Shown here: positions 45,142 to 64,000 of the stretch, piece by piece
How the letters are laid out: each line of letters begins with the position of its first letter
How positions within the stretch are numbered: position 1 is the stretch's first letter
NCBI GenBank assembly: GCA_937864985.1
Contig: CALMEZ010000194.1
Span: 151 to 64,150, forward strand
Length of the DNA stretch: 64,000 nt
DNA from: an uncultured Alphaproteobacteria bacterium
Lineage (GTDB): Bacteria; Pseudomonadota; Alphaproteobacteria; Rhizobiales; Aestuariivirgaceae
Direction of reading: 5' to 3'
Translations under genes and position numbers: made by a program
Notes under the pieces: generated by a model
Databases searched by the model: none
What the model saw: only the letters and a program-made list of their open reading frames with translations
Told to the model about the DNA's origin: nothing

Positions 45142-45248
45142 TAGAAACGTGTTTGCGATATCTATATGTTTTCATTTACGAAAAACCCTTTCGATCAAGA
45201 CAAACGCAACTCACATTTCTTGATTTTTCCACGCCGAACGAGGCGTAG

Positions 45249-45269
45249 TGTGTACGTTCTGCGTACCTC
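45249..45269. promoter_or_regulatory. Putative integrase arm-binding site (left)
   Basis: TGTGTACGTTCTGCGTACCTC; 19/21 identical to 63039-63059. Confidence 0.65.
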
Positions 45270-46323
45270 ACATCCGGCCCGCCAACTCTCTCAGTTTCTT
45301 TGGATCGTGGTGCGAATAGACGTTGTCCATTGTCTCCATGGAGAGGTTCACATACTGGGCAATGTCGCTTCGGTTTTCGCCCCGCTGCACAGCCCAGCTG
45401 ATGGCCGTGTGCCTCAGTGTGTGCGGCGTAACATTGCGCAGCTTCGCCCGTACACACGCCGCTCGAAAGCCTCTGGCGATACTCTGGACGCGATTGTGTG
45501 GCGGGTGCAGCTGATGGAAGACGAATGCGGTCTTGTCACCGTAGGCCTGAAAGCGACGCTTCAAGTGCCCATAGACCATTGGACTCATAACGAGCCTCGC
45601 TCGGCGCTTCTTGGTTTCTGGAACGCCTGGTTTCCTGAAATCAATTGTGCGAGTCCTGAAGTCGATCTGGCTCCATTCAAGCTCAAGGATCGCGCTCATG
45701 CGCTGTGCTGTGTGAAGGGCAAGCGAAATGAACAAGGTGAGCGGAAACCGGCTGCGGTATTCCATGCGCGCACTGCGCAACAGCTTGGCGGCTTCTGCTC
45801 GGTCAAGCCATCGGCTTCGGGGAGCTGTGTCCCTTGGCAACTCAAATCTGATGAAGGGCAACATCCGGTTCATGGCAACGGCATGGTTCAAGGCCGCGCG
45901 AAGGCAAATCAATTCACGACGGATTGTTGAGATCGCACGCGGTTTATTAGATTCCATCCGCGTGGCGCTGAGGATGTAGGCTTGGATTGTTTCCTTGTTG
46001 ATGTCGCCAACGGTCTTATCTTCCCAGTAGTCGAGCAGGTGGACCATGGCATAGCCAAGACGCTCGGAAGCAGATTTGCGTGGCTTCATGAATTCAGCGT
46101 AGTCGTTCAGAACTTCAGCAATCAGAACCTTGCGATGTTCGCGCGGTCTGGAGGTGCCGCGCCGTTCTTTCAGGAATTCTTCGAGCGCTTCTTCAGCTTC
46201 TGCGCGGTTTGCCGTGCCTGTTGAACGATCCTTTTGCTGTCCGTCGGCATCGATGAACCGAATGAAGTAACTAGATTTTCCTTTGCGCGTGACCAGGCGA
46301 GGTCCGCCCCTTCGACGTGGCAT
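45268..46323 (-). CDS. Tyrosine recombinase/phage integrase
   Basis: Catalytic R (TAQR), HTLRH and terminal VY; N-terminal arm-binding region. Confidence 0.93.
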   Translation of the reverse strand: MPRRRGGPRLVTRKGKSSYFIRFIDADGQQKDRSTGTANRAEAEEALEEFLKERRGTSRPREHRKVLIAEVLNDYAEFMKPRKSASERLGYAMVHLLDYWEDKTVGDINKETIQAYILSATRMESNKPRAISTIRRELICLRAALNHAVAMNRMLPFIRFELPRDTAPRSRWLDRAEAAKLLRSARMEYRSRFPLTLFISLALHTAQRMSAILELEWSQIDFRTRTIDFRKPGVPETKKRRARLVMSPMVYGHLKRRFQAYGDKTAFVFHQLHPPHNRVQSIARGFRAACVRAKLRNVTPHTLRHTAISWAVQRGENRSDIAQYVNLSMETMDNVYSHHDPKKLRELAGRM

Positions 46324-46496
46324 GGTTCGATCTCCGTGGAATGCAGCAGCTCGTCGATTGCGCCTGAGGGAATGAATATGCTTCCACCAACACGATGATG
46401 GCGCAGCCGCTTTGCAGCGATAAGATTACGTATCCTTCGGACGGGCCAGCCAATGCGGGCCGCCAATTCCTTGGGTGACTCCAGAGTAGCATTCAT
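46170..46496 (-). CDS. Excisionase-like helix-turn-helix protein
   Basis: SPKELA.RIG...RRIR.LI...RL.HHRVG.SIFIP; overlaps the 5' end of int. Confidence 0.75.
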   Translation of the reverse strand: MNATLESPKELAARIGWPVRRIRNLIAAKRLRHHRVGGSIFIPSGAIDELLHSTEIEPCHVEGADLAWSRAKENLVTSFGSSMPTDSKRIVQQARQTAQKLKKRSKNS

Positions 46497-46597
46497 CGTG
46501 ACAATTCCTTACACAAGAAGGCCAGATACAACATGATTCGACTCATTATTGCTCGAATCAACACTAATAGGCTGCATATGACACTATCGGACCTGAA

Positions 46598-46990
46598 ATG
46601 TCTATAGGGGACCGTATTAGGGCCATCCGGGCGGAAGCGGGCACAACGCAAGACGCATTTGCGGAGTCTTGTGGGGTGTCGCCCAGGGCGTTGAAAGCCT
46701 ACGAATTGGATGAGCGTGATCCGCCCTCTTCATTTGTGCTGGAGCTTTATAAGAAATACTCAGCCAGCCCGACTTGGTTACTCACAGGTGATGGTGCGAA
46801 AACAAACGAGCAATTTCGTCAATTCGTTGTGGCGGCTGTTATCGCGGTGCGCACCTTTGCGGACATCAAGAAAATTAGCTTCACGCCCGAGAAGGAAGCA
46901 AAGCTCGCGCTCTTGATTGCGGATTTATATGTGGGTGGAGGTGAACCTGGCGGGACAGTTGAAAGAGGAATTCTGGAGAACGCATCTTGA
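46598..46990 (+). CDS. XRE-family repressor
   Basis: IGDRIRAIR...TQ..FA...GVS......YE...R.P...WLLTG; divergent from xis. Confidence 0.85.
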   Translation: MSIGDRIRAIRAEAGTTQDAFAESCGVSPRALKAYELDERDPPSSFVLELYKKYSASPTWLLTGDGAKTNEQFRQFVVAAVIAVRTFADIKKISFTPEKEAKLALLIADLYVGGGEPGGTVERGILENAS

Positions 46991-47295
46991 ACAGCAGTGA
47001 TGAATCAAAGGTCGAGCGGATGGTGCAACTCCGCGCCGAAATGATCGACTTGCTCCTGGACGTCTCGAATTCCGCTGACACCCTGAACCTTCGAAGGGCA
47101 CACGCACTGAAACATTTTGAGAAGGTCGATGCGGTCGTCTTTGGCGTATTCTGTTTGGTCTCTGTCGCCCTGCTCATCGCTCCTTGGTTTGGGCCTATTG
47201 CGAAATGGTATGCAGTGCTGTTTTGGTTGTGCGCATTGACCGGCACTGTTGTTTCAATGTTTTTCCGGCGTTCAATCGATGCGCTAACATGGTAA
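46987..47295 (+). CDS. Small hypothetical membrane protein (two predicted TM segments)
   Basis: Overlaps the repressor stop; hydrophobic C-terminal half. Confidence 0.5.
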   Translation: MNSSDESKVERMVQLRAEMIDLLLDVSNSADTLNLRRAHALKHFEKVDAVVFGVFCLVSVALLIAPWFGPIAKWYAVLFWLCALTGTVVSMFFRRSIDALTW

Positions 47296-47321
47296 CTCCA
47301 GCTTAGCAGAAACCGCTTTTC

Positions 47322-47379
47322 CTTCCATGTTAAAGGCAGCCTTTCATATGGATCAAATTCGCTTCCATGTTAAAGGCAG
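47322..47379. repeat. 18-bp perfect direct repeat
   Basis: CTTCCATGTTAAAGGCAG at 47322 and 47362. Confidence 0.8.
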
Positions 47380-47411
47380 GCACTAACACAGCCCGGTTCG
47401 CAATCACATTT

Positions 47412-48677
47412 TTAGTCTTCATGACGTTCAATCACTCTCAGCAGTTGTGCGGCGCGCGTCATAATGACAGCCCGTATTTCCTTCAGAATATTGTGAAAGA
47501 TACCCTCAGCTTTCAGCTCTTTGCTGAGGACGTCCGCTTCCTGCCCAATCTGGCTGGCTAGTTCAGTCATGTCCTTCACAAGAAGGCGCTGCGCACCCTT
47601 TGTGTCCGGGATGAGCGCGAACCAATGCCGCAGCTGGATCGTGTCTGCAATCGAGCGGCCACCGATCGCCATGGCGAGATTCTTCTTCAGACGCGGATAT
47701 GCGGCAGTGCAAAGAACATCGTAAAGCGGAGCGAGGTCTGGGGCTCTGCTGCGGTAAAGGAGTGAATAGTTTTTACCGTGCGCATCCGCGTTGCCAACAA
47801 GATAGTGGAAGACCAGCATGCGGATAAAACTTAGGCGGTCGACCGCCGGGCGCCCCGCAGCGCGACTAATCAGATCCAATGATCTTTCAGTTCCAGGACC
47901 GCCTTCTTCTTCGTACTTAAATTCGGGCGGTACGCTCAACGCCTGGCAAAAATCCTCCTGATGCAGGCGCGTTATTGTGCCATCTTTACGGAGGGCGCGA
48001 TCATAGCGTTCGACCAGCAGAAACGGGATGTCACCGCCGCGACGCATTTCCACGGTGGGAACCGGGAGTTTTAGACGTGCAGCCAGGCGCATGCAGAACA
48101 ACTCGTTCTCGACTGTGCCGTCGAGTGCCTGGATGAAGGGCTTAAGAATATGCGTCGTGGGGCGGCCACCTTTGGCTAGCCCCACGTTGTCTCCCTCGAC
48201 ACACACGGCAAGCTTGTCCTGCGCACCAGCAAGGGACAGGCGGACGCCTTCCTCCCCACCAAGTAGCGGGCGTTCTCGGAGCTTACCGAGGATAGCTTTG
48301 AGCCGACTTGGACTCAAAATTTCAACGCCGTCATCATTCGGCAACGGTGGGGTTTCACCGGCAGGAAAGAGCGACAAAGCTCCCGCACATTCGCCACCGA
48401 TGATTGCAAGAAGGCCGAAGGAATTGCCGGATGAAATACCAAGTGCTCCCGCAAGACGCTGCCGAGCGGCTTCGTCCGGCAGAAGCCCGGAGAAAAATGG
48501 GCGAACGATCCGGTCGGCATAGGCCGCTTCTTGCAGCGGCATAGAGAAAGAAATAGCTCGTTCCCCCTCGCGACTGAGATAGCCAGCATCGTAAATAAAG
48601 CTGAGAGCTCCGCTATCGTCTTGGCTGAGTGTACCTGCTTTTGCCTCGCTGAAATATACATCTAGCTGTCGCGTCAT
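47412..48677 (-). CDS. hipA: HipA family Ser/Thr kinase toxin
   Basis: SLAGAQDK, RLHQED, GNADAHGKNYS, LAPLYD; N-terminal HipA coupling domain. Confidence 0.95.
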   Translation of the reverse strand: MTRQLDVYFSEAKAGTLSQDDSGALSFIYDAGYLSREGERAISFSMPLQEAAYADRIVRPFFSGLLPDEAARQRLAGALGISSGNSFGLLAIIGGECAGALSLFPAGETPPLPNDDGVEILSPSRLKAILGKLRERPLLGGEEGVRLSLAGAQDKLAVCVEGDNVGLAKGGRPTTHILKPFIQALDGTVENELFCMRLAARLKLPVPTVEMRRGGDIPFLLVERYDRALRKDGTITRLHQEDFCQALSVPPEFKYEEEGGPGTERSLDLISRAAGRPAVDRLSFIRMLVFHYLVGNADAHGKNYSLLYRSRAPDLAPLYDVLCTAAYPRLKKNLAMAIGGRSIADTIQLRHWFALIPDTKGAQRLLVKDMTELASQIGQEADVLSKELKAEGIFHNILKEIRAVIMTRAAQLLRVIERHED

Positions 48678-48901
48678 TACGAACTCTCCCGACGACTGCT
48701 GACGGAGATAGTCAGACCGAGTGCAGCAGCGACTCGAATGGCTCGTCCGAGCTGACAGCTTTCCTTTCCAGCTTCGAGCTCGCGCACGAACCGTACACCC
48801 ACGCCTGCGACACCGGCGAGCTGTTCTTGTGTCAGTTTCTGCGCCCTGCGCTCAATGCGGATCAGGAGGCCAAAGCTTTTGCTGTCTAGTATCTCGCGCA
48901 T
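48677..48901 (-). CDS. hipB: HipB-like (y4mF family) HTH antitoxin
   Basis: LTQEQLAGVAGVGVRFVRELEAGK; translationally coupled to hipA. Confidence 0.9.
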   Translation of the reverse strand: MREILDSKSFGLLIRIERRAQKLTQEQLAGVAGVGVRFVRELEAGKESCQLGRAIRVAAALGLTISVSSRRESS

Positions 48902-48906
48902 GAATC

Positions 48907-49020
48907 GTCCTTATCGGGATGATAGTAATGGCTGAGGCCTCCAAAATCCACAAAAAGTACCGATCGGGATTAAATGATCCGAAAAAGCTGTCGAGCTGAC
49001 ATTTTAATCCCGATCGGGAC
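48907..49020. promoter_or_regulatory. Three palindromic HipB operators at 50-bp spacing
   Basis: GTCCTTATCGGGAT (48907), GTACCGATCGGGAT (48957), ATCCCGATCGGGAC (49007). Confidence 0.75.
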
Positions 49021-49047
49021 GACAAATCAAAACATCTATTTCCGCAT

Positions 49048-50580
49048 CTAAGAATCTGGAAAATAACGGTTTTTAATAGCAGGGCTTCTAGCGAGCACCC
49101 GATTTAGTTCAAGAACAGAGAAGTTGAGGGTCGAAACCGATCGACGACTACAGACGCCGTCAATCTTATCGTACAAGGTCGCGTCGATCAGCGTAGAGGT
49201 CATCACACCAAAGCCCTCCGCTCCGTACTGATCAAGCATATCTCCGATATCCTGCACTCTCGTCGCACCTAGGGAGTTGGCCCGAGTCAGCTTGCACTGG
49301 AAAATCCACTTACGCCCTCTGCCGCCAGGCGACCGCGCGACTTCGCTAATCTCAATGTCACGTCCTCCATCTCGCGATCGGGAGCTGCCGAGTTTTCGGA
49401 TGGTCGAAGAGTCGAACTTGGCGTGGGCGAAAAGGATGTCGTAGCAGAGCTGCTCGAACTGCTCGTCAGAAAGGCTTTTCCAGTCGAGTGTGATCGTATC
49501 AGAGAGACCGATGACAGCAGCAACGCTGTGCAAAGTGTCACCCATCTTTCCATGCAGACTTTTAACAGCCCGTTCATCAAGTGGACTGGTGTCGTAGAGG
49601 ACGTGAGTATAGCCGCCATCGCTGACAACGATCAACGTACCCGTGTTGTGTACTAGACAGGCCTCCCTCCGCGGTCCTGGAACCCCCACACTGTCCGGAA
49701 TACCCTCTCTCATATGCTCATCGAACGGCGAATGTGTAAAAGTTGCATCAAGCCAAGCGAATTGATCGGGCGGCCAGATGTCCTCATCATGGCGTCGGGC
49801 AAAACCTGCGCAGACACGGGACTTGAAATACTGGTTCATCGGGAACCAGGTGATCATCCCCTTGCAAAAAACAAAAGACTTTCCAGATAAAACAATAACC
49901 TCCCCTTTTATGAAATCGGCGTGGCGGTAGTTCTGCCCGGTCGTAACAAAAAAAGTGTCCAGTTCGACACTTTCAGGAACAAGCCAGCTGTCAATTGAAG
50001 CATAGCAGTCCGCCCCTAGTCGGCCCCGGTATACGCTTCTATGGAAACCAAGTTCGTACTCTGGATGTTTTCCTACAAGTTCGTCGTAGTAGTCCGGAGC
50101 GTCATAGCGGATCTGATGAAGAGCGCCCGAAACAAAATTTGCGAAATAAGATTCGATAAGCTCAGGGAAGCGAGGATCGCAATCGGTCAACGAATCCTTA
50201 TGGTCAGAGATTGCCTTCCTGAGATCTTGATATCTCTCTCCTTCCCCGGTTCCGTCGTCTTGCTGCGCCTCAAAGATAATGACCACATCTTCAAGCGATT
50301 GACTGAATTTTGGGCCGGGCGCAGTAACAACAAGTCTCAACTGCGTCAGATGGGAAGCCGCAACATATTCCTCGACCACAGTGGCACTGTCGACTTCCGC
50401 CGCAAGCTTCTCTACTGCCCACGACGCGTCAACATAGTCCGAGCAAATGTCGATATGCTGGTTCGTGCGGCCAATACTGGGCATCGGAATAAGGATTGTG
50501 ACCGTTTCAACTCCCCAGAATTCAATTGCCTCGACATCGGCTAATTTCAGGCTTCTCAGATTAAGATTGATGTGTGTCAT
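49048..50580 (-). CDS. Protein with unknown N-terminal region and C-terminal Mrr-like restriction endonuclease domain
   Basis: C-terminal FEQLC...RDGGRD...IFQCK pattern. Confidence 0.75.
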   Translation of the reverse strand: MTHINLNLRSLKLADVEAIEFWGVETVTILIPMPSIGRTNQHIDICSDYVDASWAVEKLAAEVDSATVVEEYVAASHLTQLRLVVTAPGPKFSQSLEDVVIIFEAQQDDGTGEGERYQDLRKAISDHKDSLTDCDPRFPELIESYFANFVSGALHQIRYDAPDYYDELVGKHPEYELGFHRSVYRGRLGADCYASIDSWLVPESVELDTFFVTTGQNYRHADFIKGEVIVLSGKSFVFCKGMITWFPMNQYFKSRVCAGFARRHDEDIWPPDQFAWLDATFTHSPFDEHMREGIPDSVGVPGPRREACLVHNTGTLIVVSDGGYTHVLYDTSPLDERAVKSLHGKMGDTLHSVAAVIGLSDTITLDWKSLSDEQFEQLCYDILFAHAKFDSSTIRKLGSSRSRDGGRDIEISEVARSPGGRGRKWIFQCKLTRANSLGATRVQDIGDMLDQYGAEGFGVMTSTLIDATLYDKIDGVCSRRSVSTLNFSVLELNRVLARSPAIKNRYFPDS

Positions 50581-50621
50581 AAGTCCTGCATACCAGCCGA
50601 CGCTGGCGAAAGCTGTGTGTG

Positions 50622-52709
50622 TCAGGCATCTTCCTCATCAGCGCCAATGGAAATCAACCCCTCACTGTTGGCCTTCTCCAGCACTCCAATGAGAACAAGA
50701 CATTGCTTCTCAGTCGGAATTTTCGCGGGCATCTGCGCAGCAATTTGCAGTACGCCTGTCTCCTTAGGCGTCAGAACACGTTTACGTCCCAGTTCTTGCG
50801 TAATCGCTTTCCATTGGTGAGGGGGAATTTCGAAGATTCTCTTCTGAGCTTCAATTCCATTGTCGATCTTCTGAGTGACTTTAGCGTCCTTCCGTTTCTC
50901 GACCTGTTCCTCCAGTGAAAGCAGTTCATCGAAGAAGCTGTCAGGCAGGGCGGCCTCAAGCTTGTCCAAGGTACCCTGCAGCCGGGTCCAGCACTGATCC
51001 TTCTTACACCATTCAGAAATGTTTGAGATACCGGCCGGCGGGTGAACGATATCATCGTTGACGTGCTTCGCAGCAATCGCCAAGGCATCACGAATCGTGG
51101 GTGGGAGAGCCTGAATACTCCACACTTTCGAAAAATCGACAGACCTACTAAGACGTCGGCAGACCTCATTTAAAGAGGCAATGGCGTAGGCAACGATGTT
51201 GGCGCGATAGCCGCCATTGTACCAGGACTGGTCGGAAACAAGTTTCTCGGTTGCCCTGAATATGATTCCTCGTGATATAGCCCGACGGAAATAGAACTCA
51301 TTGAACGCGTCGGGCGACTTTGTCCATTCCTTGCCGATCCGGCCGGCATAACGCGCAAAGTTCTTCTGAGCGCCGAGGTTCACCCATTTGGGATGGTCGT
51401 CCCAGACGTTCTCGAACTTCGCCAAATCCGTCTTGGTGAACATCTGCGGCTTAGGATTCTCAGCCTTGAAGCGGCGCTGTTCCGGCGGAGAGAGCTTCGC
51501 CTGCGCGTCTGCGTACTGACCGCGCGCGCGTTCATAAAACCACCTGCTCTCGCGCTGTGCGCCCTGTTGGGCCGGCGCCCATAGGCGTCGCGAGAATGTT
51601 TCCATGCGTATATGGAAGGGGTGGTTTGAGAAGAAGTCGGCGGCATTCACGCGGTTCTGGGTGTTCGCGTACTCCGAGATACGCGGCACGACCAACTCGC
51701 TTTCCGCGCTATCAATGACCGATAATTTCATCTGCACGAATATGTTGGTGAGGCTCGCTTTGTCCTTGCGTTTAGTATGAAACAGCGACGCAGTGGTCTG
51801 GCCGCCGTTCACAATCTGCAGATCACGAATTCGCGTAATCAGCAGGCCACTATCACCCGGCGAAATCTCAACTTCCTGGGCTGTAGCTGTGATGCCGTTG
51901 TTGTAAGCGAAAAACATCTGCGGCTCGGAAAGGATGGTCGTCCGGATACCCTGGTTTACTTTGCCTCTCGCCTGCAGGAACGATCGCACATTCTGCTCCA
52001 GCAGGCGCGCGCCGTACTTGCCGTAGAGGCCCGCCAGGACGTCAGCCGGGATCACGGTAAGGTAAGATTGATAGGACTGCGAACCAAGGTGCGCCGGCAG
52101 GCAGGGAATTCCGACCCCGAACATTTCCGGAAAATTGATGTCGAGCGGCTCTTTGTGACCTTTCGCGCTGCGCTGACGTTGGAGACGAGAAATATCCCAG
52201 ATGTTGTAGGTGACAGGAACCCCGGCTACGACGCCATCTTCAAGCGACTGTATCCGATCGCTGAGCATTCGCTCGGACAACAGATGCAGGTTGACCTGCC
52301 GGATAAATGACTTCCGGTCGGCAATCTGACGTGCGAGGCCATACTCCGGCGAGGTGACTTCGAGTTTCTGATAGAAAGACTTCGAAATGCAGGCGTCGAA
52401 GAACTTCTCCACTCTGCCAAAGCCGGCATTCACCTCTGACGGTGCCAGTGAGCCTAGTTCGTTGCGGCAATCGAAATCCGCTACAAACAGATCAAGCGCT
52501 CCCTCGTCGTTGAACCAGTAACCGTCCACCCGCATCCCCTGAGCGGCGCGGTAGTGGCAGAACTCAAAGCCTTCGACAAAGCCGGTTTCGGTCAGCTCAC
52601 TGGCCACGGCTTCCATGAACTCCGAGAGCTGGAAACTACTGTTTGCCTCTGCGCCCGCCAGAAGCTCCTGTCTAAAGTCGTGAAAAAACTCCTGTGCTGA
52701 CTGCTCCAT
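50622..52709 (-). CDS. AIPR family protein (MzaE-like)
   Basis: LLEQNVRSFL, FFAYNNGIT, QIVNGGQTT, ANTQN. Confidence 0.93.
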   Translation of the reverse strand: MEQSAQEFFHDFRQELLAGAEANSSFQLSEFMEAVASELTETGFVEGFEFCHYRAAQGMRVDGYWFNDEGALDLFVADFDCRNELGSLAPSEVNAGFGRVEKFFDACISKSFYQKLEVTSPEYGLARQIADRKSFIRQVNLHLLSERMLSDRIQSLEDGVVAGVPVTYNIWDISRLQRQRSAKGHKEPLDINFPEMFGVGIPCLPAHLGSQSYQSYLTVIPADVLAGLYGKYGARLLEQNVRSFLQARGKVNQGIRTTILSEPQMFFAYNNGITATAQEVEISPGDSGLLITRIRDLQIVNGGQTTASLFHTKRKDKASLTNIFVQMKLSVIDSAESELVVPRISEYANTQNRVNAADFFSNHPFHIRMETFSRRLWAPAQQGAQRESRWFYERARGQYADAQAKLSPPEQRRFKAENPKPQMFTKTDLAKFENVWDDHPKWVNLGAQKNFARYAGRIGKEWTKSPDAFNEFYFRRAISRGIIFRATEKLVSDQSWYNGGYRANIVAYAIASLNEVCRRLSRSVDFSKVWSIQALPPTIRDALAIAAKHVNDDIVHPPAGISNISEWCKKDQCWTRLQGTLDKLEAALPDSFFDELLSLEEQVEKRKDAKVTQKIDNGIEAQKRIFEIPPHQWKAITQELGRKRVLTPKETGVLQIAAQMPAKIPTEKQCLVLIGVLEKANSEGLISIGADEEDA

Positions 52710-56349: not shown

Positions 56350-57827
56350 GCAAATTCTTCCCCAATAAACTGTTGCACCAGTTCCATTTTGTGTTCGAAC
56401 ATACGCGTAGAGCGGATGATATTCATAAACTCCGCCGGTTCAGGGACAGTTTCTCCGAACAGTATCAATCTAAGCTCACGAAGTCGGGCTCTAAGCTCGT
56501 CATCACTTGCCGATGTATTGCGTACGTCCCGGGGCTGCGTCGAGTAATCCGAATAGATCATCTCGATGGGTAGAGCGTGCCCGACCGAGTCCAGCATCAG
56601 ACGAAGGGCGCGCGTGCCGTCCTCGTCGAGCCGGGTCGATAAGGCGCGCACTAGGGGATGATTGAGATTGAGGCTGTATCTTATGCCGCCCTGGTCGGCG
56701 TAGCGCTCCCATATGGGTGCCTGAACATCCTCGAACAGCTTTTGTCCGCGCCCTCTGTGAACGTTAGTGCTGCGCCCGGTAATCCGGGGAATGATCTGCC
56801 GCAGTCGCTCGCGCACTGCGTGGGGAGGCCGCGCGCGCGACTTCTTAATATCAATCGTCCACATCTCATCAAGTGTGCTGGGAAAATCGATCTGCACGCG
56901 AGCCAGCTTCGTCGCCTCACCTTTGGGAATCAGGCGGAACCAGTCGCCCCAGGTCATCAGGCGCCCGTTACGGTAAATGTAAGCACCCTGGTTGGAAATG
57001 AAGTCGCTGCGGTTTTGATAGTAATCGTAGTCCTTCGCCGACAGGCGGCTGTGATGCGGTAGAATGTAGGGCTGCATATGGACAGAGTCAGAACCGATAC
57101 GAACGATATCCTCCGGCAGCATTTCAGAACCGCTCTTGCGGCAGAACGGATCAAAGGGCTCGACAGGATGTCCGTTGATCCGGATGGCAATCTTCCTGCG
57201 CCCTTTGAGCTCGCCGGATAAGAAGCGGTGAAAAACCAGAGAGAGATGCTTTTCGAGGACGTCCAGCTTCTCGTTGACAATCTCATCGCGCTTCTGGCTT
57301 GTCTCGTCTTCAAACAACCGGTCGAGCTGGCGCCAGACGACGATAGTGCCGTTCTCTCCCAGCTGATCCAAGAAGGGGAGCGCTTCGATATCCTCTTCAT
57401 CAAGAATCGACAGTATCCAGTCATCCTTCTGGTCGATCAGATCGAGGTCCCACTCGGCGCCGCACTGTACCCCGTTCTGAGCGCTGACCACTGTCAGACG
57501 GCGGCACTGCGAGAAGGACGCGGTCTTGAGCCCAAGACCAAATCTTCCGAGGTCACGCGGCGACCGGGGAGTGCGCGGATTGGCGGCGCCATGCCGCATG
57601 GCCGCGACGATTGTGTCGCTGTCCATGCCGCGCCCATTGTCGATGATAACGAGCGTCGGCGCCTGCAGGCTCAGATTGCAGAAGATGGCAATCTCGGTGG
57701 CCTCCGCCGAAATGCTGTTATCGACAATATCAGCAACGGCCGTCTCCAGAGAGTAGCCAAGGTCCCGCATGGAGGCTGACAACGAAGATGCGCTCGGTGG
57801 GAGCGGATGCGGTCTGGCCATTACCAC
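56346..57827 (-). CDS. MORC/MutL-type GHKL ATPase (MzaB-like)
   Basis: GY....AVADIVDNSI.A, DNG.GM, LGRFGLGLKTASFS, G.YIYRN.RL. Confidence 0.92.
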   Translation of the reverse strand: MVMARPHPLPPSASSLSASMRDLGYSLETAVADIVDNSISAEATEIAIFCNLSLQAPTLVIIDNGRGMDSDTIVAAMRHGAANPRTPRSPRDLGRFGLGLKTASFSQCRRLTVVSAQNGVQCGAEWDLDLIDQKDDWILSILDEEDIEALPFLDQLGENGTIVVWRQLDRLFEDETSQKRDEIVNEKLDVLEKHLSLVFHRFLSGELKGRRKIAIRINGHPVEPFDPFCRKSGSEMLPEDIVRIGSDSVHMQPYILPHHSRLSAKDYDYYQNRSDFISNQGAYIYRNGRLMTWGDWFRLIPKGEATKLARVQIDFPSTLDEMWTIDIKKSRARPPHAVRERLRQIIPRITGRSTNVHRGRGQKLFEDVQAPIWERYADQGGIRYSLNLNHPLVRALSTRLDEDGTRALRLMLDSVGHALPIEMIYSDYSTQPRDVRNTSASDDELRARLRELRLILFGETVPEPAEFMNIIRSTRMFEHKMELVQQFIGEEFA

Positions 57828-58243
57828 TCTCCTTCCAGCTGTTGTATGATCCCCGCAAGCGTGCCGTCGGGGTCCCTCTCAAGTTCACATTCCCAGACAG
57901 TGATCACCCGCCAACCGGCGGCGGTCAGCTCACCTGCCTTGCGTGCGTCCCGCTCGACGGTAGCTGCGAACTTGTCGGTCCAGAAACTGGTCCTTGTCGA
58001 AGGCGTGGTGGCATAGCGGCAACCGGGATGGCGATGCCAGTAGCATCCATGCACGAAGATCACGGTGCGGTATCGCGGAAGCACAACATCGGGCCGTCCC
58101 GGAAGGTTTTTCTTATGCAGGCGGAACCGGTATCCCGCGCCGTGAAGAAGCGAACGGAGATGACGCTCGGGGCCTGTATCGACGCCTTTGATGCGCGACA
58201 TATTCCAGCTTCGATGCTCGGCAGTAATTGTATCCACCATCAC
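57821..58243 (-). CDS. vsr: Very short patch repair endonuclease
   Basis: RSWNMSRI...DT.PE, LPGRPD, FVHGCYWH.H, VWEC. Confidence 0.95.
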   Translation of the reverse strand: MMVDTITAEHRSWNMSRIKGVDTGPERHLRSLLHGAGYRFRLHKKNLPGRPDVVLPRYRTVIFVHGCYWHRHPGCRYATTPSTRTSFWTDKFAATVERDARKAGELTAAGWRVITVWECELERDPDGTLAGIIQQLEGEW

Positions 58244-59796
58244 GGCTCGCCTTTCATGGAATCGAGCACCTCTGCGATCAGCGCCGCGATCTGGCGGGCA
58301 AGATATGGTGGAACGGCATTGCCGACCTGATGATACTGAGACGTGCGCGGTCCTTCGAAATTGTAGTTGTCTGGAAATGTCTGAAGGCGCGCTGCTTCGC
58401 GGACCGTGAGGCTACGACACTGGACCGGATCGTAATGGATGAAGTAGTGGCCGTCCTTGGATATGTGAGATGTGATTGTGGTTGATACCTCATCGGCCAA
58501 TTGAACTCTGAATCGGTCCGAAAACATTTTACCAGTGCGCCCGAGCTCGACATTCTGGTGCGCCGGGAGCAGCGCACGCGGGAAGTCCGACAGCTTGGGG
58601 CTGCGGCCCGTGATATTCGCAAAAACGGCTGCGTACCAGTAGCGACGGAGATCGGACGCCATATGGCTGCGAGATTCATGGCCGGTCAAAACGTCTAGCC
58701 GGGCATCGTGAAGACTGTTCAGCGCCCCATGCCTGCCTGCAATCTTTCCAGGGTAAGTCCTTGAGAATCGCTCTTCAGGGATGTTTTTTGCCGAACGCAG
58801 CCGAAGCTTTATGTCGCTTGTTACAGCCTTATTGTAGGACGCGCCGTTCAACTGGCCGGCAATGTCTATTGCTGAGAGACGTTCGACCTCCTTGTACCAG
58901 AGCAGGGGCGAGTCGTCGCTTTTGGAAAGCCCGCTTCTAATGACTGGCATATTGCCAATCGTTTCTCTGACAGTGGGACTCTTATGCGGACGCAGAAGTC
59001 CCGGCCGGGTTTTCAGATCACTTCTAATGCCGACGATGAACATCCTGTGGCGCGCCTGCGGAACACCGTAATCCTCGGCCCTCACCAAAAACAATTTTGG
59101 GTCAGTGGCGCGTTCCGGCATTTCGACTTCTGCCAGAGAGTAAAGTTTGTAACTAAGTCCGTTTTCCCCGCCACGCAGCGCAGCGCGGGGATGCTGGAGG
59201 TCACTCAAGATGCGGTTGATGACCGGGGTGCCATTCACAGTCGCAGACAAAAGACCCTTCACGTTCTCCATTACGAAGACAGGTGGAGCGTGATCGACAA
59301 TGATCTTCAGATATTCCTTGTAGAGAAAATGTCTCTCGTCCTCTTCGAAACCAGGCTGCCCCATCATCCGGGAGCGCCCGGCCAATGAGTACGCTTGGCA
59401 AGGTGGCCCGCCTACAAGAGCCCACTTTTTCGTGCCTGCAAGCCGCTTGTTGATGACGCGGCGCACAGCAGAGTGAGAGTCGGGACCGAGCGAAATGCGA
59501 AGTGCACTTTTCGCAGCCTCAGCAAATTTGGATCTATAGGTGCGGTACAAGTCTTCGGTGGCAATCTCGCCTTTCAAATAGCTGTAGTATTCGTCAGGGT
59601 ATTCTCCACCCGGAAAACATCGGAGGAAGTGGCGAAGAAGAAGCGTTCGATGTGAGAATTCGTCACGTTCGATTGCCAACACCCCATGAAAGACCTGTTC
59701 ATCGTGTTCACCAGCAAGCGAAGTGAATCCTTCGCCCAGTCCTCCCGGACCAGCGAAGACATCAACTAGGGGATAGGGCTTGCGACGGCGCGGCAT
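58240..59796 (-). CDS. dcm: DNA (cytosine-5)-methyltransferase
   Basis: FAGPGG, GGPPCQ, ENV, Q.R.R, TVREAARLQTFPD, GNAVP. Confidence 0.96.
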   Translation of the reverse strand: MPRRRKPYPLVDVFAGPGGLGEGFTSLAGEHDEQVFHGVLAIERDEFSHRTLLLRHFLRCFPGGEYPDEYYSYLKGEIATEDLYRTYRSKFAEAAKSALRISLGPDSHSAVRRVINKRLAGTKKWALVGGPPCQAYSLAGRSRMMGQPGFEEDERHFLYKEYLKIIVDHAPPVFVMENVKGLLSATVNGTPVINRILSDLQHPRAALRGGENGLSYKLYSLAEVEMPERATDPKLFLVRAEDYGVPQARHRMFIVGIRSDLKTRPGLLRPHKSPTVRETIGNMPVIRSGLSKSDDSPLLWYKEVERLSAIDIAGQLNGASYNKAVTSDIKLRLRSAKNIPEERFSRTYPGKIAGRHGALNSLHDARLDVLTGHESRSHMASDLRRYWYAAVFANITGRSPKLSDFPRALLPAHQNVELGRTGKMFSDRFRVQLADEVSTTITSHISKDGHYFIHYDPVQCRSLTVREAARLQTFPDNYNFEGPRTSQYHQVGNAVPPYLARQIAALIAEVLDSMKGEP

Positions 59797-59881
59797 TCAA
59801 TTTCCTGTCGAGCTACACGTACCGCGCCGCGCAACGGTCATGGAATGTTGCCTGACTTTTTCATGGGGCGACCCCCGGCTA

Positions 59882-60097
59882 TCATTTTTCATTTTTCCAC
59901 TGCCCTAAACGTCCAACTTTGTCAGACTTACGTGGAGGCGGTCCGAAAACATGCCCCCTCATCCGCTCAAATTCCTCAACGCTAAGGACGACAACTACTG
60001 GCCGCCCGTGCTTTTCAACAGAAACTGGTTCAGCGCGCGCCGTATCCAACAGGAGACCGAAAGCGTTCTTCGCATCTCGCGCAGACATGGTTTTCAT
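59882..60097 (-). CDS. Phd/YefM family antitoxin (orphan)
   Basis: MSARDAKNAFGLLLDTARAEPV.VEKHGRPVVVV.S.EEF. Confidence 0.88.
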   Translation of the reverse strand: MKTMSARDAKNAFGLLLDTARAEPVSVEKHGRPVVVVLSVEEFERMRGHVFGPPPRKSDKVGRLGQWKNEK

Positions 60098-60486
60098 TGC
60101 GATACCCCGTTCAGATTGTGTCCATAATGTCTACTTTGACGATTTCATGCAACTTCTAATCATAAATGTATCGGTTGGTGCGCTTCAGACACTGCGTATC
60201 TTCAAGTGAAATGGCGCACCGAAATTGATAAAACCGGACACCGATATGTCACTGTCGATGTTGAGCTAAGAACAGCTAGTGCAGGACCGGGTTTCCAAGG
60301 GTCGAATTAGGGTCGAGAGTGGCCGGCGTGCCCCGTTTCATCTCGATATGGAGGAATTTTAGCGCACCTGCCAGGATGTAACTGAGCACTATTACGGGAC
60401 AGCGAGGCCTTTATGAACTCTAAGACAGCCTTGCGGCGACGATATGGCAATTGTCGATTTGGTCGAGTTATTGCAGTATTCAAGGC

Positions 60487-61344
60487 ATGGCTGACGAGCA
60501 AGACGCACCTACCGAGGCTGACCTCCTATTCACCAAAGATCAGTGGGATGCCGCTATGCCCGATCTCACTCGGAGCATGACGACATACCTGGCGCAGTAT
60601 CGAACGCCAGTATTCAAAGAGTTGGGCGATCACGGGAAAGGTTGGGGGAGCGGGTCCTTCATCGAAGTCGATGGCGCCAAGTATATTCTGACGAATGAAC
60701 ATGTAGCCACGATCCGTCACTCAGGGACGTTTCTCGGGTTTCAGCTTGCAAATCAGGACAAACTGTTCCGGGTCCAAGGCAATCATGTCGAGCAAGGATG
60801 GCCTTGGGACCTTGCCCTGCTGCCAGTGAGTGACACCGCCTGGACAACGGTCCACCACGCTTCCAAGGTGATCCAGATTGACCAGATCGCACTGGCGCAC
60901 ACGCCGACGCCAACCGAAGTATTCGCGTTGGCGGGCTTTGCCGGTGATAACACGGGCTTTCATTTCGCTACTCTCCTTAGCAAAGCGACTGTGAGTCTCT
61001 CGCGCGAGGTAGAATTGCCCAAAATTGAGCAATGGGATAGTCGGTTTCACTTTGGCTTGGACTATCTGCCTGATCTCGCAACTAGCGTCGTCAGCAATGA
61101 GGGTTTGCCCAAGCCTCCTGGGCTCAGCGGTTCGGCAGTCTGGAACACCGGCTTCGTAGAAGCGAAAGCCAAAGGTATCAAGTGGACACCTGAGTTAGCG
61201 CAGGTCGCAGGCGTGGCTTGGGGCTGGTCTTCGAAGGACGGCATCATCGTTGCCACGCGGGCTGAACACATCAGAAGCTTTCTTCTCGGCGCAACAGCAG
61301 AGCTGAGCGCGGCAGGCGTGGCGCAAGACGTAGTTCAGACGTGA
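60487..61344 (+). CDS. Trypsin-like serine protease domain protein, no signal peptide
   Basis: GSG, LTNEHV (His), DLALL (Asp), GLSGS (Ser). Confidence 0.7.
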   Translation: MADEQDAPTEADLLFTKDQWDAAMPDLTRSMTTYLAQYRTPVFKELGDHGKGWGSGSFIEVDGAKYILTNEHVATIRHSGTFLGFQLANQDKLFRVQGNHVEQGWPWDLALLPVSDTAWTTVHHASKVIQIDQIALAHTPTPTEVFALAGFAGDNTGFHFATLLSKATVSLSREVELPKIEQWDSRFHFGLDYLPDLATSVVSNEGLPKPPGLSGSAVWNTGFVEAKAKGIKWTPELAQVAGVAWGWSSKDGIIVATRAEHIRSFLLGATAELSAAGVAQDVVQT

Positions 61345-61391
61345 CCAACCTGTAACCAAGAACAGGGAGACGTTGCGTGGTAAACTTCAAC

Positions 61392-61468
61392 TGGCGCACC
61401 CGACACGGTTCGAACGTGTGGCCTCCACCTTCGGATGGTGGCGCTCTATCCAGCTGAGCTACGGGTGC
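61392..61468 (-). tRNA. tRNA-Arg(CCG), island-encoded variant
   Basis: 77 nt GCACCCGTAGCTCAGCTGGATAGAGCGCCACCATCCGAAGGTGGAGGCCACACGTTCGAACCGTGTCGGGTGCGCCA; all stems pair and CCA is encoded. Confidence 0.9.
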
Positions 61469-61497
61469 AGAGTTATGCCGATAATGGCCGCGACTGA

Positions 61498-61956
61498 TTA
61501 GGCGCTGTCGTCGTTGCCAGATGTTGTGACCGCTGACGTGACCTCGGAATTTGTCTCTTCCAGGTCAGTCCTGAGATCCTCAAGCCTCGCCGTCCGCCTC
61601 AACCACAAGCCATGGCTCATAGCCATTTTGTTGATCTCCTCGTCCACCATCAAAAGATGCTGATACAGACCATGCCACATCTCTGCGCCTTCCTCATCGC
61701 TCACCGCGAAGCCGTCTCTCAGCGCGCACAACAGATTGTACAGATTAGCCCCGAGCCTTCGCAGCTGATGACTCAATTGAATGATGGTCTGCGAGTCTTC
61801 CGCCGTGAGCATCGGCCCATGGCCGTGGGCGGCGCGAACTAGGCGGCGGATGATTTCACTGCGATTGAGCCCGAACCTGTTTTCAAGTTCAATGAGGATG
61901 GCCTGGTCGACGTCGGCCAGGAAGAGGTGGATTTGTTTTTTGCCATGGCGTGACAT
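61498..61956 (-). CDS. MobC-like relaxosome accessory protein (ribbon-helix-helix)
   Basis: RHH-like N-terminus (GLNRSEIIRRLV) and QLRRLGANL motif resembling MobC L.RIG.NLNQ. Confidence 0.65.
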   Translation of the reverse strand: MSRHGKKQIHLFLADVDQAILIELENRFGLNRSEIIRRLVRAAHGHGPMLTAEDSQTIIQLSHQLRRLGANLYNLLCALRDGFAVSDEEGAEMWHGLYQHLLMVDEEINKMAMSHGLWLRRTARLEDLRTDLEETNSEVTSAVTTSGNDDSA

Positions 61957-62025
61957 GCTACCGCCTCGTCTTCGCAAGCAGGCCGTTGGGATGACGGCCT
62001 GCACTTTTGGACGCGGATGCGGCCC

Positions 62026-62056
62026 GCAGATGTGTACACACATCTGCTATCTTGTC
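62026..62056 (+). other. Putative oriT (MOBP-like nic site with proximal inverted repeat)
   Basis: GCAGATGTGT-AC-ACACATCTGC immediately followed by TATCTTG|T, close to the IncP nic consensus YATCCTG|Y; upstream of mobC. Confidence 0.6.
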
Positions 62057-62107
62057 AGAAAACAAATACTCACAACGGCTCATCGGAAACTCCACAAGAC
62101 CAGATTT

Positions 62108-62998
62108 TCAAACCAGGTTCGGGCGCGCTTCGCGCGCCCTCATAGGGGCATTTTCAATGCCCGGCGGCAGTCTCGTTTGCGTCAGCAGAAACCCCTGAGC
62201 CCTGACACGTTCACCTGCATCTCGCGAAACCGTCGCGGCCATGTGATCGAGCCACGGCTGCCATTCCTTGCACTCCGGCTTGATCTCGAAGCGACCTTCA
62301 CTGGTCAGCTTTGGTCCGCCTGCGAAATTGAGAAACTCCCGCTTCTTCAGATACGGGATCATCAAGCCAACGCTGCCCTGCTGCTTGGCGTTCTTCCGAA
62401 ACGCTGCTGCATGGGTCACTGAGGCCCGTTGGTCACTCGCTGAGAGTTTGGCAAAGGTCGCCTCAGCGGCTCCCCTGAACTCCGGCCGCTCCTGTTCCGG
62501 CCACTCCTCCCAAAACTGATTGAAATCCCCCTTCCTCCCTACCGGTTCTTTGGCAGGACCTTTGGAGGGTAGGGAGGAGGATTCAGATGATGGATCAAGT
62601 GACGGTTCATTGCCCGGCACCTGATGCCGGACCCCCCGGCGTCTGGTGCCGGGCCTACCGGCAGGATTTGCCGCTTGGCTTTTCCTACCGGCAGATTTCG
62701 CCGGTTGGCTCGCTGCCACCTCGACCTTGGCAGCAATAGCCAACTGGAAGAGGTCAGACGTCCGCGAGCCGTCACGCCTGTTTCGGCGGGTGCGGGTGAT
62801 CAGCCCTTGCGCCTCAAGTTTCTGCAGCCAGTCGCGCGTTGCCCGCTCACCAAGTTCTGCTTCCCGCGCAATCGTTGTCTGCGAAGGCCAGCACTCGCCC
62901 TTTTCGTTCGCGTAGTTTGCAAGGCAGATGAGCAAAGCCTTGCCTGTCGGTGATCCCACGCGCTGCGAGATCGCCCATGCCACGGCCTGGATACTCAT
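62108..62998 (-). CDS. Helix-turn-helix replication initiator-like protein (phage O/HTH_36 type)
   Basis: MS..A.AWA...K.LL..LANYA...G.CWPS..TIA winged helix; low-complexity middle region carrying DNA repeats. Confidence 0.7.
   Translation of the reverse strand: MSIQAVAWAISQRVGSPTGKALLICLANYANEKGECWPSQTTIAREAELGERATRDWLQKLEAQGLITRTRRNRRDGSRTSDLFQLAIAAKVEVAASQPAKSAGRKSQAANPAGRPGTRRRGVRHQVPGNEPSLDPSSESSSLPSKGPAKEPVGRKGDFNQFWEEWPEQERPEFRGAAEATFAKLSASDQRASVTHAAAFRKNAKQQGSVGLMIPYLKKREFLNFAGGPKLTSEGRFEIKPECKEWQPWLDHMAATVSRDAGERVRAQGFLLTQTRLPPGIENAPMRAREARPNLV
62614..62704. repeat. Four palindromic iteron-like repeats CCGGCA-N5-TGCCGG
   Basis: Copies at 62614, 62636, 62658 and 62688 inside the rep-like gene. 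Confidence 0.7.
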
Positions 62999-63038
62999 GG
63001 CGCAACACCCACCGAAATCGGGGGCAATTTGGGCGTTA

Positions 63039-63059
63039 TGTGTACAATCTGCGTACCTC
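63039..63059. promoter_or_regulatory. Putative integrase arm-binding site (right)
   Basis: TGTGTACAATCTGCGTACCTC; matches 45249-45269. Confidence 0.65.
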
Positions 63060-63113
63060 GCGCCACTTTGCGCGGAACGCGGAAATTAAAACATAACAAT
63101 TTCAATGATTTAG

Positions 63114-63158: not shown

Positions 63159-64000
63159 AATGGATAATCGGTTTCGCCGAAACTATCCATTTCTATCCGA
63201 TTGCGCGCTATGCCACTGAAATCACAAAACAAATTTGAATTCGACAAGCGCCGAGGATACGACAGGGCGGCCAAACCCCTACCCTGCCGTGCTTACGCTT
63301 TGCTTACGCGCGGAACCTTTCAAGGAGACGCCCACACATGCCGAAGTTGACCAAACGAACTGTCGATACCACTGAAATTCGTTCAGCGGACTATATCATT
63401 TGGGATGAGGAGTTGCCCGGTTTCGGGTTGCGCGTCTTCGCTTCGGGGAAGCGAAGCTATGTAGTGCAGTATCGCGCTGCAGGCCGCTCGCGTCGCTACA
63501 CGATCGGGCTGCATGGCGTTTGGACTCCCGAGGAAGCCAGGCGTGAGGCTAAAGTCCTGCTCGGCCAGGTCGCACGAGGCGGCAACCCTGCCGAGGAGCG
63601 CAAGCTGGATCGCGAAGCGATCACGGTTAAAGAACTCTGCACCCGCTATCTCGAAGATCTGAGGAACGGGCTTGTGCTCGGTAAGCGAGGGCGGCCTAAG
63701 AAGGCCACGACGATCTCGACCGATGTCGGGCGCATCGAGCGCCACATAGTTCCTCTGCTCGGCAATCGACGGGTGCGGGATTTGGCCAAGTCCGACATCA
63801 CCCAAGCTATGAAGGACATCATGGCGGGCAAGACCCGCGCAAGCGTCAAGACAGACAAGCTCCGCGGGCGCGCTATCGTACGTGGCGGAGCCGGCACGGC
63901 AGCCCGGACGATAGGACTCTTCGGCGGTATTCTGACCTATGCGGTGGAACTCGGCATCGTCGAGCAGAACCCCGTGCATGGTGTGCGTAAGCCGAAGGAC
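63159..64000. mobile_element. Start of a second integrative element at the same tRNA
   Basis: tRNA half followed by a TGCTTACGC direct repeat (63290, 63301) and an integrase. Confidence 0.8.
63338..64000 (+). CDS. P4-like tyrosine integrase with Arm DNA-binding domain (3' end outside window; absent from the ORF track)
   Basis: AAGGAG RBS then [10 protein letters not shown]...[25 protein letters not shown]...RRYTIG.HG..TPEEAR. Confidence 0.92.

What the first reader, a model, noticed from the sequence alone, without database searches (positions are those of the whole stretch)
45268..63113. Candidate new type of hitch-hiking integrative element: phage-type switch and replicon plus relaxase-less oriT/MobC, with defence cargo
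Seen: the left arm carries int-xis and a divergent XRE repressor. The right arm carries an HTH initiator with iterons, an oriT-like site, mobC and a tRNA. There are no capsid, terminase, relaxase or T4SS genes, and about 14 kb of the interior is defence or toxin-antitoxin cargo. On circularisation, xis-int-attP-rep-oriT-mobC-tRNA all become collinear on the minus strand. Inference: excision may place rep and mobC under the xis-int promoter as an excision-coupled switch, and the element may borrow a relaxase and mating pore in trans, possibly from island 2 or a plasmid. This hybrid of satellite and mobilisable island is the strongest candidate here for an undescribed system.
Basis: partly seen in the sequence, partly recalled or inferred. 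Interest (0 to 1): 0.78.

Follow-up and report, generated by a model that had tools for sequence, protein, structure and literature searches.

The report
Relaxase-borrowing defence island with spare tRNA
This 18-kb chromosomal island carries anti-phage genes, a phage-type replication gene and a plasmid-type transfer origin with its helper protein but no transfer enzyme, so it likely hitches rides on a related conjugative plasmid, and where that enzyme gene normally lies it carries a spare arginine tRNA gene that may stand in for the host copy, which a neighbouring element has broken.

Summary
A 28-nt arm repeat found only at the two ends ties int to rep. Rep is lambda O-like, with four internal dyad iterons conserved at silent sites. 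The oriT and MobC derive from MOBP/VirD2-type (rhizobial type IV) conjugative plasmids; a same-genus conjugative contig (G164) has an oriT identical at 62 of 79 columns, followed by relaxase, VirD4 and VirB. The element has no relaxase or relic. Relatives 10-13% diverged, from two other studies, keep mobC directly followed by the tRNA, with mostly silent changes, so recent decay is unlikely. Distant sisters with this rep carry a different relaxase module; one more distant element with the same layout carries capsid genes. The tRNA-Arg(CCG) is recoded and is the only intact copy assembled; the neighbouring Tn4371-type ICE breaks the host gene. Each mechanism has a precedent: MGIVchHai6/iOriT (own accessory protein, borrowed relaxase), Tn916 (excision-coupled transcription), tRNA-dependent lysogeny. 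The combination, and this helper family, were not found in my searches. Verdict: new variant of a known kind. Excision, replication and transfer are untested.

The parts
45097..45141 (-). attR: 45-nt tRNA-Arg(CCG) 3' fragment
   Evidence: repeat family D1, 91% to the attL-side copy; same place after int in G019
45242..45269 (-). arm-type 28-nt repeat (predicted integrase arm site), overlapping the int stop
   Evidence: D10; only two copies in the MAG; identical after int in G019
45268..46323 (-). tyrosine integrase, 351 aa, pointing at attR
   Evidence: PF00589, phrog_1; 94% identical in G019
46170..46496 (-). excisionase-like HTH_17 protein overlapping the int start
   Evidence: PF12728 E 6e-6, 26.8 bits, just under cut-off
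46598..46990 (+). divergent XRE repressor; xis/XRE module differs among relatives while int is kept
   Evidence: only 29% identical in G019; replaced in an X7 contig (joint 46336-47327)
47322..47379 (+). two identical 18-nt direct repeats at the backbone/cargo border, function unknown
   Evidence: D7; region also covered in X6 and X7; in no other fetched locus
47412..48901 (-). HipBA toxin-antitoxin pair
   Evidence: PF07804, PF13657, TIGR03070-like
49048..50580 (-). Mrr-domain restriction endonuclease
   Evidence: PF04471
50622..59796 (-). Dcm, Vsr and MZA-like operon (MzaB ATPase, MzaC Z1, MzaD DUF4420, MzaE AIPR)
   Evidence: Pfam, NCBIfam (below equivalog cut-offs) and PADLOC hits
59882..60097 (-). 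orphan Phd/YefM antitoxin
   Evidence: PF02604
60451..61344 (+). trypsin-like peptidase ORF
   Evidence: PF13365 weak, below cut-off
61392..61468 (-). recoded tRNA-Arg(CCG), 29 nt after the mobC stop, where plasmids have the relaxase; compensated anticodon and T stems
   Evidence: follows mobC in X7 and X14; 2 of 156 genus genomes
61498..61956 (-). MobC/VirD1-like relaxosome accessory protein, 152 aa
   Evidence: 32-42% to proteins on the 20 listed of 60 plasmid hits, upstream of annotated relaxases in 6 of 8 loci read; 50% to G164; RHH_1 weak
61981..62057 (-). predicted oriT: nic core 62057-62048, inverted repeat 62047-62026, second hairpin 61999-61981
62108..62998 (-). lambda O-like replication initiator: winged helix, disordered linker, helical C-terminal part
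   Evidence: PF13730; phrog_1032/391 E 1e-25; model; wHTH fold matches only
62615..62704 (-). four dyad iterons inside the rep linker (predicted origin of replication)
   Evidence: third positions invariant in 20 of 35 codons versus 9 of 88 and 8 of 117 elsewhere
63032..63059 (-). second arm-type repeat, 34 nt before the rep start
   Evidence: also before rep in G021, G160 and L065
63114..63160 (-). attL side: tRNA-Arg 3' half that is also the far att of the neighbouring ICE
   Evidence: in G021 an intact host tRNA stands here
63338..64000 (+). not part of the element: start of the 466-aa integrase of the tandem neighbour (Tn4371-type ICE)
   Evidence: 66% to the G065 ICE integrase

Best explanation
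It is an integrative defence island at tRNA-Arg(CCG) that encodes no relaxase and likely transfers by borrowing the VirD2-like relaxase and VirD4/VirB pore of a rhizobial type IV conjugative plasmid. Shown by sequence: int-xis and XRE at one end; O-like initiator with internal iterons, oriT, mobC and a recoded tRNA at the other; shared arm repeats; variable cargo between. Inferred steps: (1) loss of XRE repression expresses xis-int and the element excises; (2) on the circle the xis-int transcript can run through attP into rep, which binds its iterons and keeps the circle by theta replication using host helicase loading (no loader gene is present); (3) the element's MobC binds its own inverted repeat next to the nic core it shares with the plasmids and lets the plasmid relaxase nick; rep and int would enter the recipient first, mobC last; (4) int reintegrates at the tRNA 3' end without breaking it. 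The cassette was probably captured from a G164-like plasmid, with the relaxase position now held by a tRNA whose att-region stems are recoded; that tRNA likely serves as an integration-proof spare at a hotspot where ICEs break the host gene.
For: nic core exact upstream of mobC in 7 of 8 plasmid loci read, each followed by a different inverted repeat. G164 oriT matches at 62 of 79 columns including the first 16 nt and the second hairpin, followed by mobC (50%), relaxase, VirD4 (54%) and VirB11 (69%); G171 likewise. Two-part motif in 5 of 241 family genomes: two elements, two conjugative contigs, one without mobC. No relaxase relic in the element. Single contigs span tRNA-mobC-oriT in X7 (83 differences in 815 nt) and X14 (82 differences, 19 gaps, 61409-62142), from two further studies. 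Listed mobC differences change 15 codons silently and 5 not, and 10 and 0 in the other table (both tables cut to the best-supported rows, overlapping). None of the 120 listed nearest relaxases lies on a contig of a length that holds an element-type mobC, while a plasmid-type mobC/relaxase pair does match. L045 has rep, a nic-like site and a distant mobC with no relaxase behind. Iteron conservation. Precedent MGIVchHai6.
Against: No helper relaxase or T4SS found in this MAG (82% complete). No attP joint and no raised depth in the source run (element contigs 6.6-8.3, flank 9.1; contigs drop rare forms). The inner four base pairs of the inverted repeat differ from G164, so cross-recognition is not guaranteed. 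Of five full-length rep relatives from genomes with readable DNA behind rep (L044, L045, L046, L048, L052), four do encode a relaxase, though of another family with another MobC. In G021 mobC is frameshifted and cut by an insertion, and G160 holds only a truncated rep, so decay does occur. Int and rep were never seen on one contig outside the window: G019 has int without this rep, G021 rep without int. No promoter was found for xis-int or rep, and in G021 rep also lies behind the host tRNA promoter with no recognised terminator, which a switch would need.
Confidence: 0.62

Rival explanations
1. It is an old, immobile remnant of a relaxase-encoding IME; oriT and mobC persist by slow decay or because mobC's promoter drives the useful tRNA, and the element survives through its defence and addiction cargo.
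For: Four of five distant rep sisters are relaxase-bearing IMEs; broken members exist (G021, G160); no helper in the MAG and no circle seen; HipBA, R-M and the tRNA could hold it in place.
Against: The sisters' relaxase and MobC are unrelated to this cassette (no tblastn hit), so this is not their deletion product; mobC changes are mostly silent; nic and hairpins are kept while flanks drift; cargo and host strains differ among relatives.
Confidence: 0.16
2. It is a phage-satellite derivative that replicates from its O-like origin and moves mainly inside helper phage particles or by transduction; the oriT-mobC piece is secondary.
For: Phage-type xis-int/XRE switch and O-like initiator; G573 has the same layout with portal, protease, capsid, HNH and terminase genes; 18 kb size.
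Against: No packaging gene in the window; no full-length rep relative above 47% and no mobC relative among viral contigs; the G573 rep is on a long branch and its integrase is unrelated by BLAST.
Confidence: 0.1
3. The oriT-MobC cassette acts against incoming type IV plasmids, as a decoy or repressor of their relaxosome, and is part of the defence cargo rather than a mobility module.
For: MobC family proteins bind oriT DNA (established knowledge, recalled); SGI1 kin interfere with helper relaxosomes (PMC13635750, search listing only); no genome held both element and plasmid.
Against: The cassette keeps the plasmid orientation and an intact nic inside an excisable, replicon-bearing unit; numbers are too small (2 and 2 of 241) for exclusion to mean anything.
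Confidence: 0.1

Closest known systems
MGIVchHai6/MGIVmi1-type mobilisable genomic islands (PMC7449626, passages read; PMC5704250 section 3.2 read)
   Same: Integrase, xis, own oriT directly upstream of an own relaxosome accessory gene, no relaxase; helper plasmid supplies relaxase, coupling protein and T4SS; relatives carry phage-resistance genes.
   Different: Those use MobI, MOBH TraI of IncC, AcaCD control and trmE/yicC/dusA sites in Gammaproteobacteria. This uses a MobC/VirD1-like protein, a MOBP nic, tRNA-Arg, its own XRE switch, an O-like replicon and a tRNA, in Hyphomicrobiales.
iOriT elements (bioRxiv 10.64898/2026.01.13.699239; abstract, section 7 and passages read)
   Same: att-bounded islands with oriT but no relaxase or MPF, rich in defence systems, often in tandem.
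   Different: That survey covers six nosocomial species and describes hitchers as unrelated to helpers beyond oriT; here mobC is also helper-derived. In its main text 'tRNA' has 0 and 'replication' 3 occurrences; supplements could not be seen.
Rhizobial type IV conjugation system, MOBP0 traA/mobC/parA with avhD4/avhB (PMC10410297, passages read)
   Same: The parA-oriT-mobC-relaxase order and VirD4/VirB of the plasmids that carry this mobC family fit that description; nic core and mobC are shared.
   Different: The element keeps only oriT and mobC. Assignment of these plasmids to MOBP0 rests on gene order and MOB-suite MOBP typing, not on a tree.
Tn916 excision-coupled transcription (10.1101/2024.09.05.611371, passages read)
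   Same: Promoter and xis-int at one end, DNA-processing genes at the other, joined only on the circle.
   Different: Tn916 has a mapped promoter, insulating terminator and antiterminator and is self-transmissible; none is mapped here.
SGI1 and IMEs with phage-type initiators (PMC5704250 passages; PMC7826253, PMC7433901 search listings)
   Same: Mobilisable islands with a replication initiator for the excised form.
   Different: SGI1 has a Rep_3 initiator and its own Mps module; streptococcal IMEs have replisome organisers plus their own relaxase.
tRNA-dependent lysogeny (PMC10865867, abstract read)
   Same: [quoted passage not shown]
   Different: Here the break is made by the neighbouring ICE; this element's own integration leaves the tRNA whole in G021.
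PICI and capsid-forming PICI satellites (PMC6092414 search listing; cf-PICI gene set recalled)
   Same: Size, integrase, divergent regulators, phage-type initiator, defence cargo; G573 has this layout with head genes.
   Different: No packaging genes; a conjugative oriT-mobC cassette instead.

Membership tests
relaxase-less mobilisable island (MGI/iOriT) | integrase, RDF and att sites bounding the unit | tested here: met
relaxase-less mobilisable island (MGI/iOriT) | oriT resembling that of a conjugative element with a relaxase | tested here: met
   in silico:
relaxase-less mobilisable island (MGI/iOriT) | no relaxase and no MPF in the element | tested here: met
relaxase-less mobilisable island (MGI/iOriT) | excises and is mobilised in trans | not testable with these tools
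   no attP joint in contigs of the source run, which cannot show absence
MGIVchHai6 family proper | MobI homologue, IncC helper, trmE/yicC/dusA site | tested here: not met
   accessory protein matches MOBP plasmid MobC; site is tRNA-Arg
canonical IME | own relaxase next to oriT | tested here: not met
   none and no relic; none in X7 and X14 relatives; met in rep sisters L044, L046, L048, L052
PICI / capsid-forming satellite | integrase, divergent regulators, phage-type initiator | tested here: met
PICI / capsid-forming satellite | packaging or capsid genes (terminase, portal, capsid) | tested here: not met
   none among the ORFs scanned; present in G573
lambda O-type replicon | O-like initiator with iterons inside its linker | tested here: met
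lambda O-type replicon | own helicase loader (P or DnaC-like) next to the initiator | tested here: not met
   rep is followed by oriT and mobC
tRNA-dependent integration | own integration fails to rebuild the host tRNA | tested here: not met
   intact tRNA directly before the element arm in G021; the break in G000 and G065 carries the ICE arm
tRNA-dependent integration | carries a tRNA of the broken isotype | tested here: met
tRNA-dependent integration | that tRNA is required for host survival | not testable with these tools
   the ICE arm in G000 is cut 75 nt after the break, so a second copy may be unassembled
Tn916-type excision-coupled switch | promoter at one end reads through attP; far-end genes insulated when integrated | tested here: inconclusive
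   geometry fits; no minus-strand promoter or terminator found; both arms fold modestly, z -2.2 and -2.8
MZA defence system | MzaA-E gene set | tested here: inconclusive
   MzaB-E hits below NCBIfam equivalog cut-offs, no MzaA hit; Dcm, Vsr and Mrr flank

The most novel reading that the evidence does not exclude
One alphaproteobacterial chassis (xis-int at one end, O-like initiator with internal iterons at the other, fused into one operon by excision) switches lifestyle by swapping the module behind rep: capsid genes (satellite, G573), MobC-relaxase-VirD4 (IME, L044/L046/L048/L052), or oriT-MobC alone (hitcher, this family and independently L045). This branch put an integration-proof tRNA-Arg(CCG) in the relaxase slot, so once a neighbouring ICE breaks the host gene the island becomes indispensable: addiction by tRNA rescue of damage done by another element.
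Probability: 0.25. Interest if true: 0.8.

Novelty: new variant of a known kind. Interest (0 to 1): 0.56.

Why it matters
It extends relaxase-in-trans islands, so far dissected for IncC/SXT helpers in Gammaproteobacteria, to VirD2-like type IV plasmids of Hyphomicrobiales, and names a concrete helper and a predicted nic site, so a mating test is direct. Tools that find mobile islands by their relaxase would miss this family, though it moves anti-phage systems. The nic core is constant while the adjacent repeat and MobC vary, a natural test of accessory-protein specificity as described for SmpO (PMC8136818, abstract). The rep family sits in prophages, a capsid-forming element, IMEs and hitchers, which makes the satellite-to-IME transition traceable. 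If the recoded tRNA rescues a gene broken by another element, that is a cross-element form of tRNA-dependent integration.

Tried and rejected
Complex prediction of MobC (2 copies) with the G164-type relaxase: no answer, score 0.01, neither for nor against. MobC model low confidence (pLDDT 60) and its fold search uninformative. Rep fold searches gave only generic winged-helix matches; the C-terminal part was barely tested. Viral contig scans: no mobC relative, no recoded tRNA, three chance oriT-pattern hits inside coding DNA. One search used too short a gap and found nothing, including the window; repeated correctly. Neighbour ICE as helper: rejected, different relaxase family and no nic match in 60 kb of G065. 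73-aa xis frame: rejected for the 108-aa frame. Chimeric join at the 63160 att: considered because depth beyond 63470 is 2.7 and the contig end is GC-rich; the same ICE-integrase/att layout in G065 and L045 and the matching broken tRNA on C153 argue that the tandem is real, though the last kilobases of the contig may not be. Mis-join at the tRNA 5' end: rejected, X7 and X14 contigs cross it. Joints between tRNA fragments (sides under 30 nt, likeness 80) were not used. LexA and CtrA boxes: none at the switch. CGG usage gives no reason for the tRNA (19% of Arg codons versus 18% in host ORFs). MobC monophyly: one side of a branch at 79/85, not shown, not rejected. Search for the integrase in five rep-bearing genomes: one 34% hit at another tRNA. 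Three look-ups of earlier findings returned nothing. Literature searches without a description of this family; subscription journals and preprint supplements are not covered.

Full report
Anatomy. The element lies between two 3' fragments of tRNA-Arg(CCG), 63160-63114 and 45141-45097. From the right on the minus strand: a 28-nt arm repeat, rep (62998-62108), oriT, mobC (61956-61498), a tRNA-Arg(CCG) (61468-61392), 14.0 kb of cargo, a divergent XRE, xis (46496-46170), int (46323-45268) and the second arm repeat. The arm motif occurs only twice in the 3.37-Mb MAG, and in other genomes it sits after int (G019) or before rep (G021, G160, L065), which ties the two ends together. The cargo is Dcm, Vsr, an MZA-like operon, Mrr, HipBA, an orphan Phd and a trypsin-like ORF. 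Relatives place the host in the Hyphomicrobiales. In G021 the host polA region and an intact tRNA lead straight into arm, rep, oriT and mobC; L044 and L049 also have tRNA-Arg then rep. A 16-nt att remnant in G160 and host-type pairing in G021 suggest, by inference, a crossover at the tRNA 3' end that does not break the gene.

Replicon. Rep matches PHROG families annotated as replication initiator and O-like at E about 1e-25. The model has a winged helix, a disordered linker (91-156) and a helical C-terminal part. The linker holds four dyads at 62704-62615, spaced about 30, 22 and 22 nt. Across five rep genes, mostly about 50% identical, third codon positions are invariant in 20 of 35 linker codons against 9 of 88 in the HTH and 8 of 117 in the C-terminal part; at fourfold sites of conserved residues 5 of 7 against 0 of 27 and 1 of 12. 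This is selection on DNA, as for lambda iterons inside O (recalled). No helicase loader is encoded.

Transfer cassette. MobC has no good Pfam hit but matches 60 plasmid records. In 8 of these read, 6 have an annotated relaxase directly behind it and 7 have a ParA-family gene on the other side. A 10-nt core lies upstream of mobC in 7 of the 8, and a two-mismatch variant in the eighth, each followed by an inverted repeat of its own; the window has the same core and its own repeat. The core resembles the RP4/T-DNA border nic (recalled). Among 241 family genomes the mobC profile hits G000, G021, G164 and G171. G164 and G171 carry oriT, mobC, relaxase, VirD4 and VirB11; the G164 relaxase is split in the assembly, but full-length 782-aa relatives at 83-84% exist. 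The G164 oriT matches at 62 of 79 columns and its MobC at 50%. This gene order fits rhizobial type IV, MOBP0 systems (PMC10410297, passages). No relaxase or T4SS was found in this MAG.

Decay or design. Of five genome loci with a full-length rep relative and readable DNA behind it, four (L044, L046, L048, L052) encode MobC and a relaxase, three with a VirD4-like gene, but of a family unrelated to the window cassette; L045 has a nic-like site and a distant mobC with no relaxase. Close relatives keep the relaxase-less form: of 8 runs laid (21 listed), X7 and X14, from two studies other than the likely source, have single contigs running tRNA-mobC-oriT at about 90% and 87% identity; X7 also holds rep and int at 87-90% on separate contigs and almost none of the cargo. 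Listed differences in mobC are mostly silent (15:5 and 10:0 codons, truncated and overlapping tables). None of the 120 listed nearest relaxases (of 374 passing, 7,994 scored) sits on a contig of a length that holds an element mobC, whereas a plasmid pair matches; this is weak, as only the longest contig per cluster is given. Against: G021 mobC is broken, G160 is a stub, and int and rep were not seen together on one contig elsewhere.

The tRNA. It folds as a cloverleaf and differs from host-type copies by compensated changes in the anticodon and T stems, the region that forms att. It occurs in 2 of 156 genus genomes, G000 and G065. The same two, and no others, have the host gene broken after the anticodon stem by one foreign arm. 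In G065 the breaker is a Tn4371-type ICE (RPA, ParA, DUF3363 relaxase, TraG, TrbB; family name recalled from gene content) that carries the recoded tRNA about 260 nt inside its end. Its integrase is 66% identical to the one starting at 63338. In G000 the element's copy is the only intact tRNA-Arg(CCG) assembled, but the ICE arm is cut after 75 nt, so a second copy may be missing. This works like tRNA-dependent lysogeny (PMC10865867, abstract) except that breaker and rescuer would be different elements.

The switch. On the circle xis-int, attP, rep, oriT, mobC and tRNA are collinear. Consensus scans find no minus-strand promoter or terminator on either arm, so read-through is neither blocked nor shown. 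At the usual site rep also follows the host tRNA promoter, so an insulator would be needed, as in Tn916 (10.1101/2024.09.05.611371, passages). The source run shows no attP joint and no raised depth. The xis/XRE pair varies fast while int is kept, as phage immunity regions do (inference). In G573 an element at tRNA-Phe has the same layout with a more distant rep, followed by portal, protease, capsid, HNH and both terminase subunits, which links the chassis to capsid-forming satellites.

Comparison and verdict. It works like MGIVchHai6, where an island-encoded accessory protein and oriT recruit the IncC relaxase (PMC7449626; PMC5704250), and falls in the iOriT class, but it is not a member of that family. 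Phage-type initiators in IMEs are already noted. I found no description of a relaxase-less island for VirD2-like type IV plasmids, or of one with an O-type replicon and a tRNA in the relaxase slot. New variant of a known kind; interest 0.56. All functional steps are inferred.

Noticed in passing
G573:C1 about 1544500-1560900 (L254, L255): Complete 16-kb tail-less element at tRNA-Phe: O-like rep with the same dyads, portal, protease, capsid, HNH, small and large terminase, cargo, xis-like genes and int; looks like a capsid-forming PICI in Hyphomicrobiales.
   Followed up: partly
G065:C1 1512774-1583390 (L041, L042, L272-L274); G000 C153:64-117 and window 63338 onward: Tn4371-type ICE that breaks tRNA-Arg(CCG) on integration and carries a recoded replacement: tRNA-dependent integration in an ICE rather than a phage.
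   Followed up: partly
L261 (G019), L262 (G160), L263 (G164): More signs of a contested hotspot: host tRNA-Arg(CCG) broken by a different arm in G019; a second, differently recoded tRNA-Arg copy with a shared upstream sequence in G160 and G164.
   Followed up: no
L044:3141-7022, L046, L048, L052: IMEs with this O-like rep followed by MobC, a relaxase with a ColE1 MbeA-like start (recalled) and, in three, a VirD4-like gene.
   Followed up: partly
L048:10240-10480, L066: One 22-nt iteron unit is missing, which shifts the rep frame in L048.
   Followed up: no
window 47322-47379: Two identical 18-nt repeats 40 nt apart at the backbone/cargo border, region shared with X6 and X7; unexplained.
   Followed up: partly
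window 46534-46560: 8-bp inverted repeat with GANTC sites between xis and XRE, a candidate operator.
   Followed up: no
window 61437 (tRNA position 32): The window's tRNA has A where G065 and host copies have C at the first anticodon-loop position, which may affect function.
   Followed up: no
contig C194 beyond the window, about 66000-67027: GC rises to about 69% in a 58% genome; the contig end may be mis-joined.
   Followed up: no
window 24317-44811: About 20 kb of sugar/polyol and amino-acid catabolic genes at 51-57% GC left of attR; no mobility gene among the ORFs scanned.
   Followed up: partly
L244:8857-15683 (G171): Multi-gene block of likely defence genes directly upstream of the plasmid oriT, in the leading region.
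   Followed up: no
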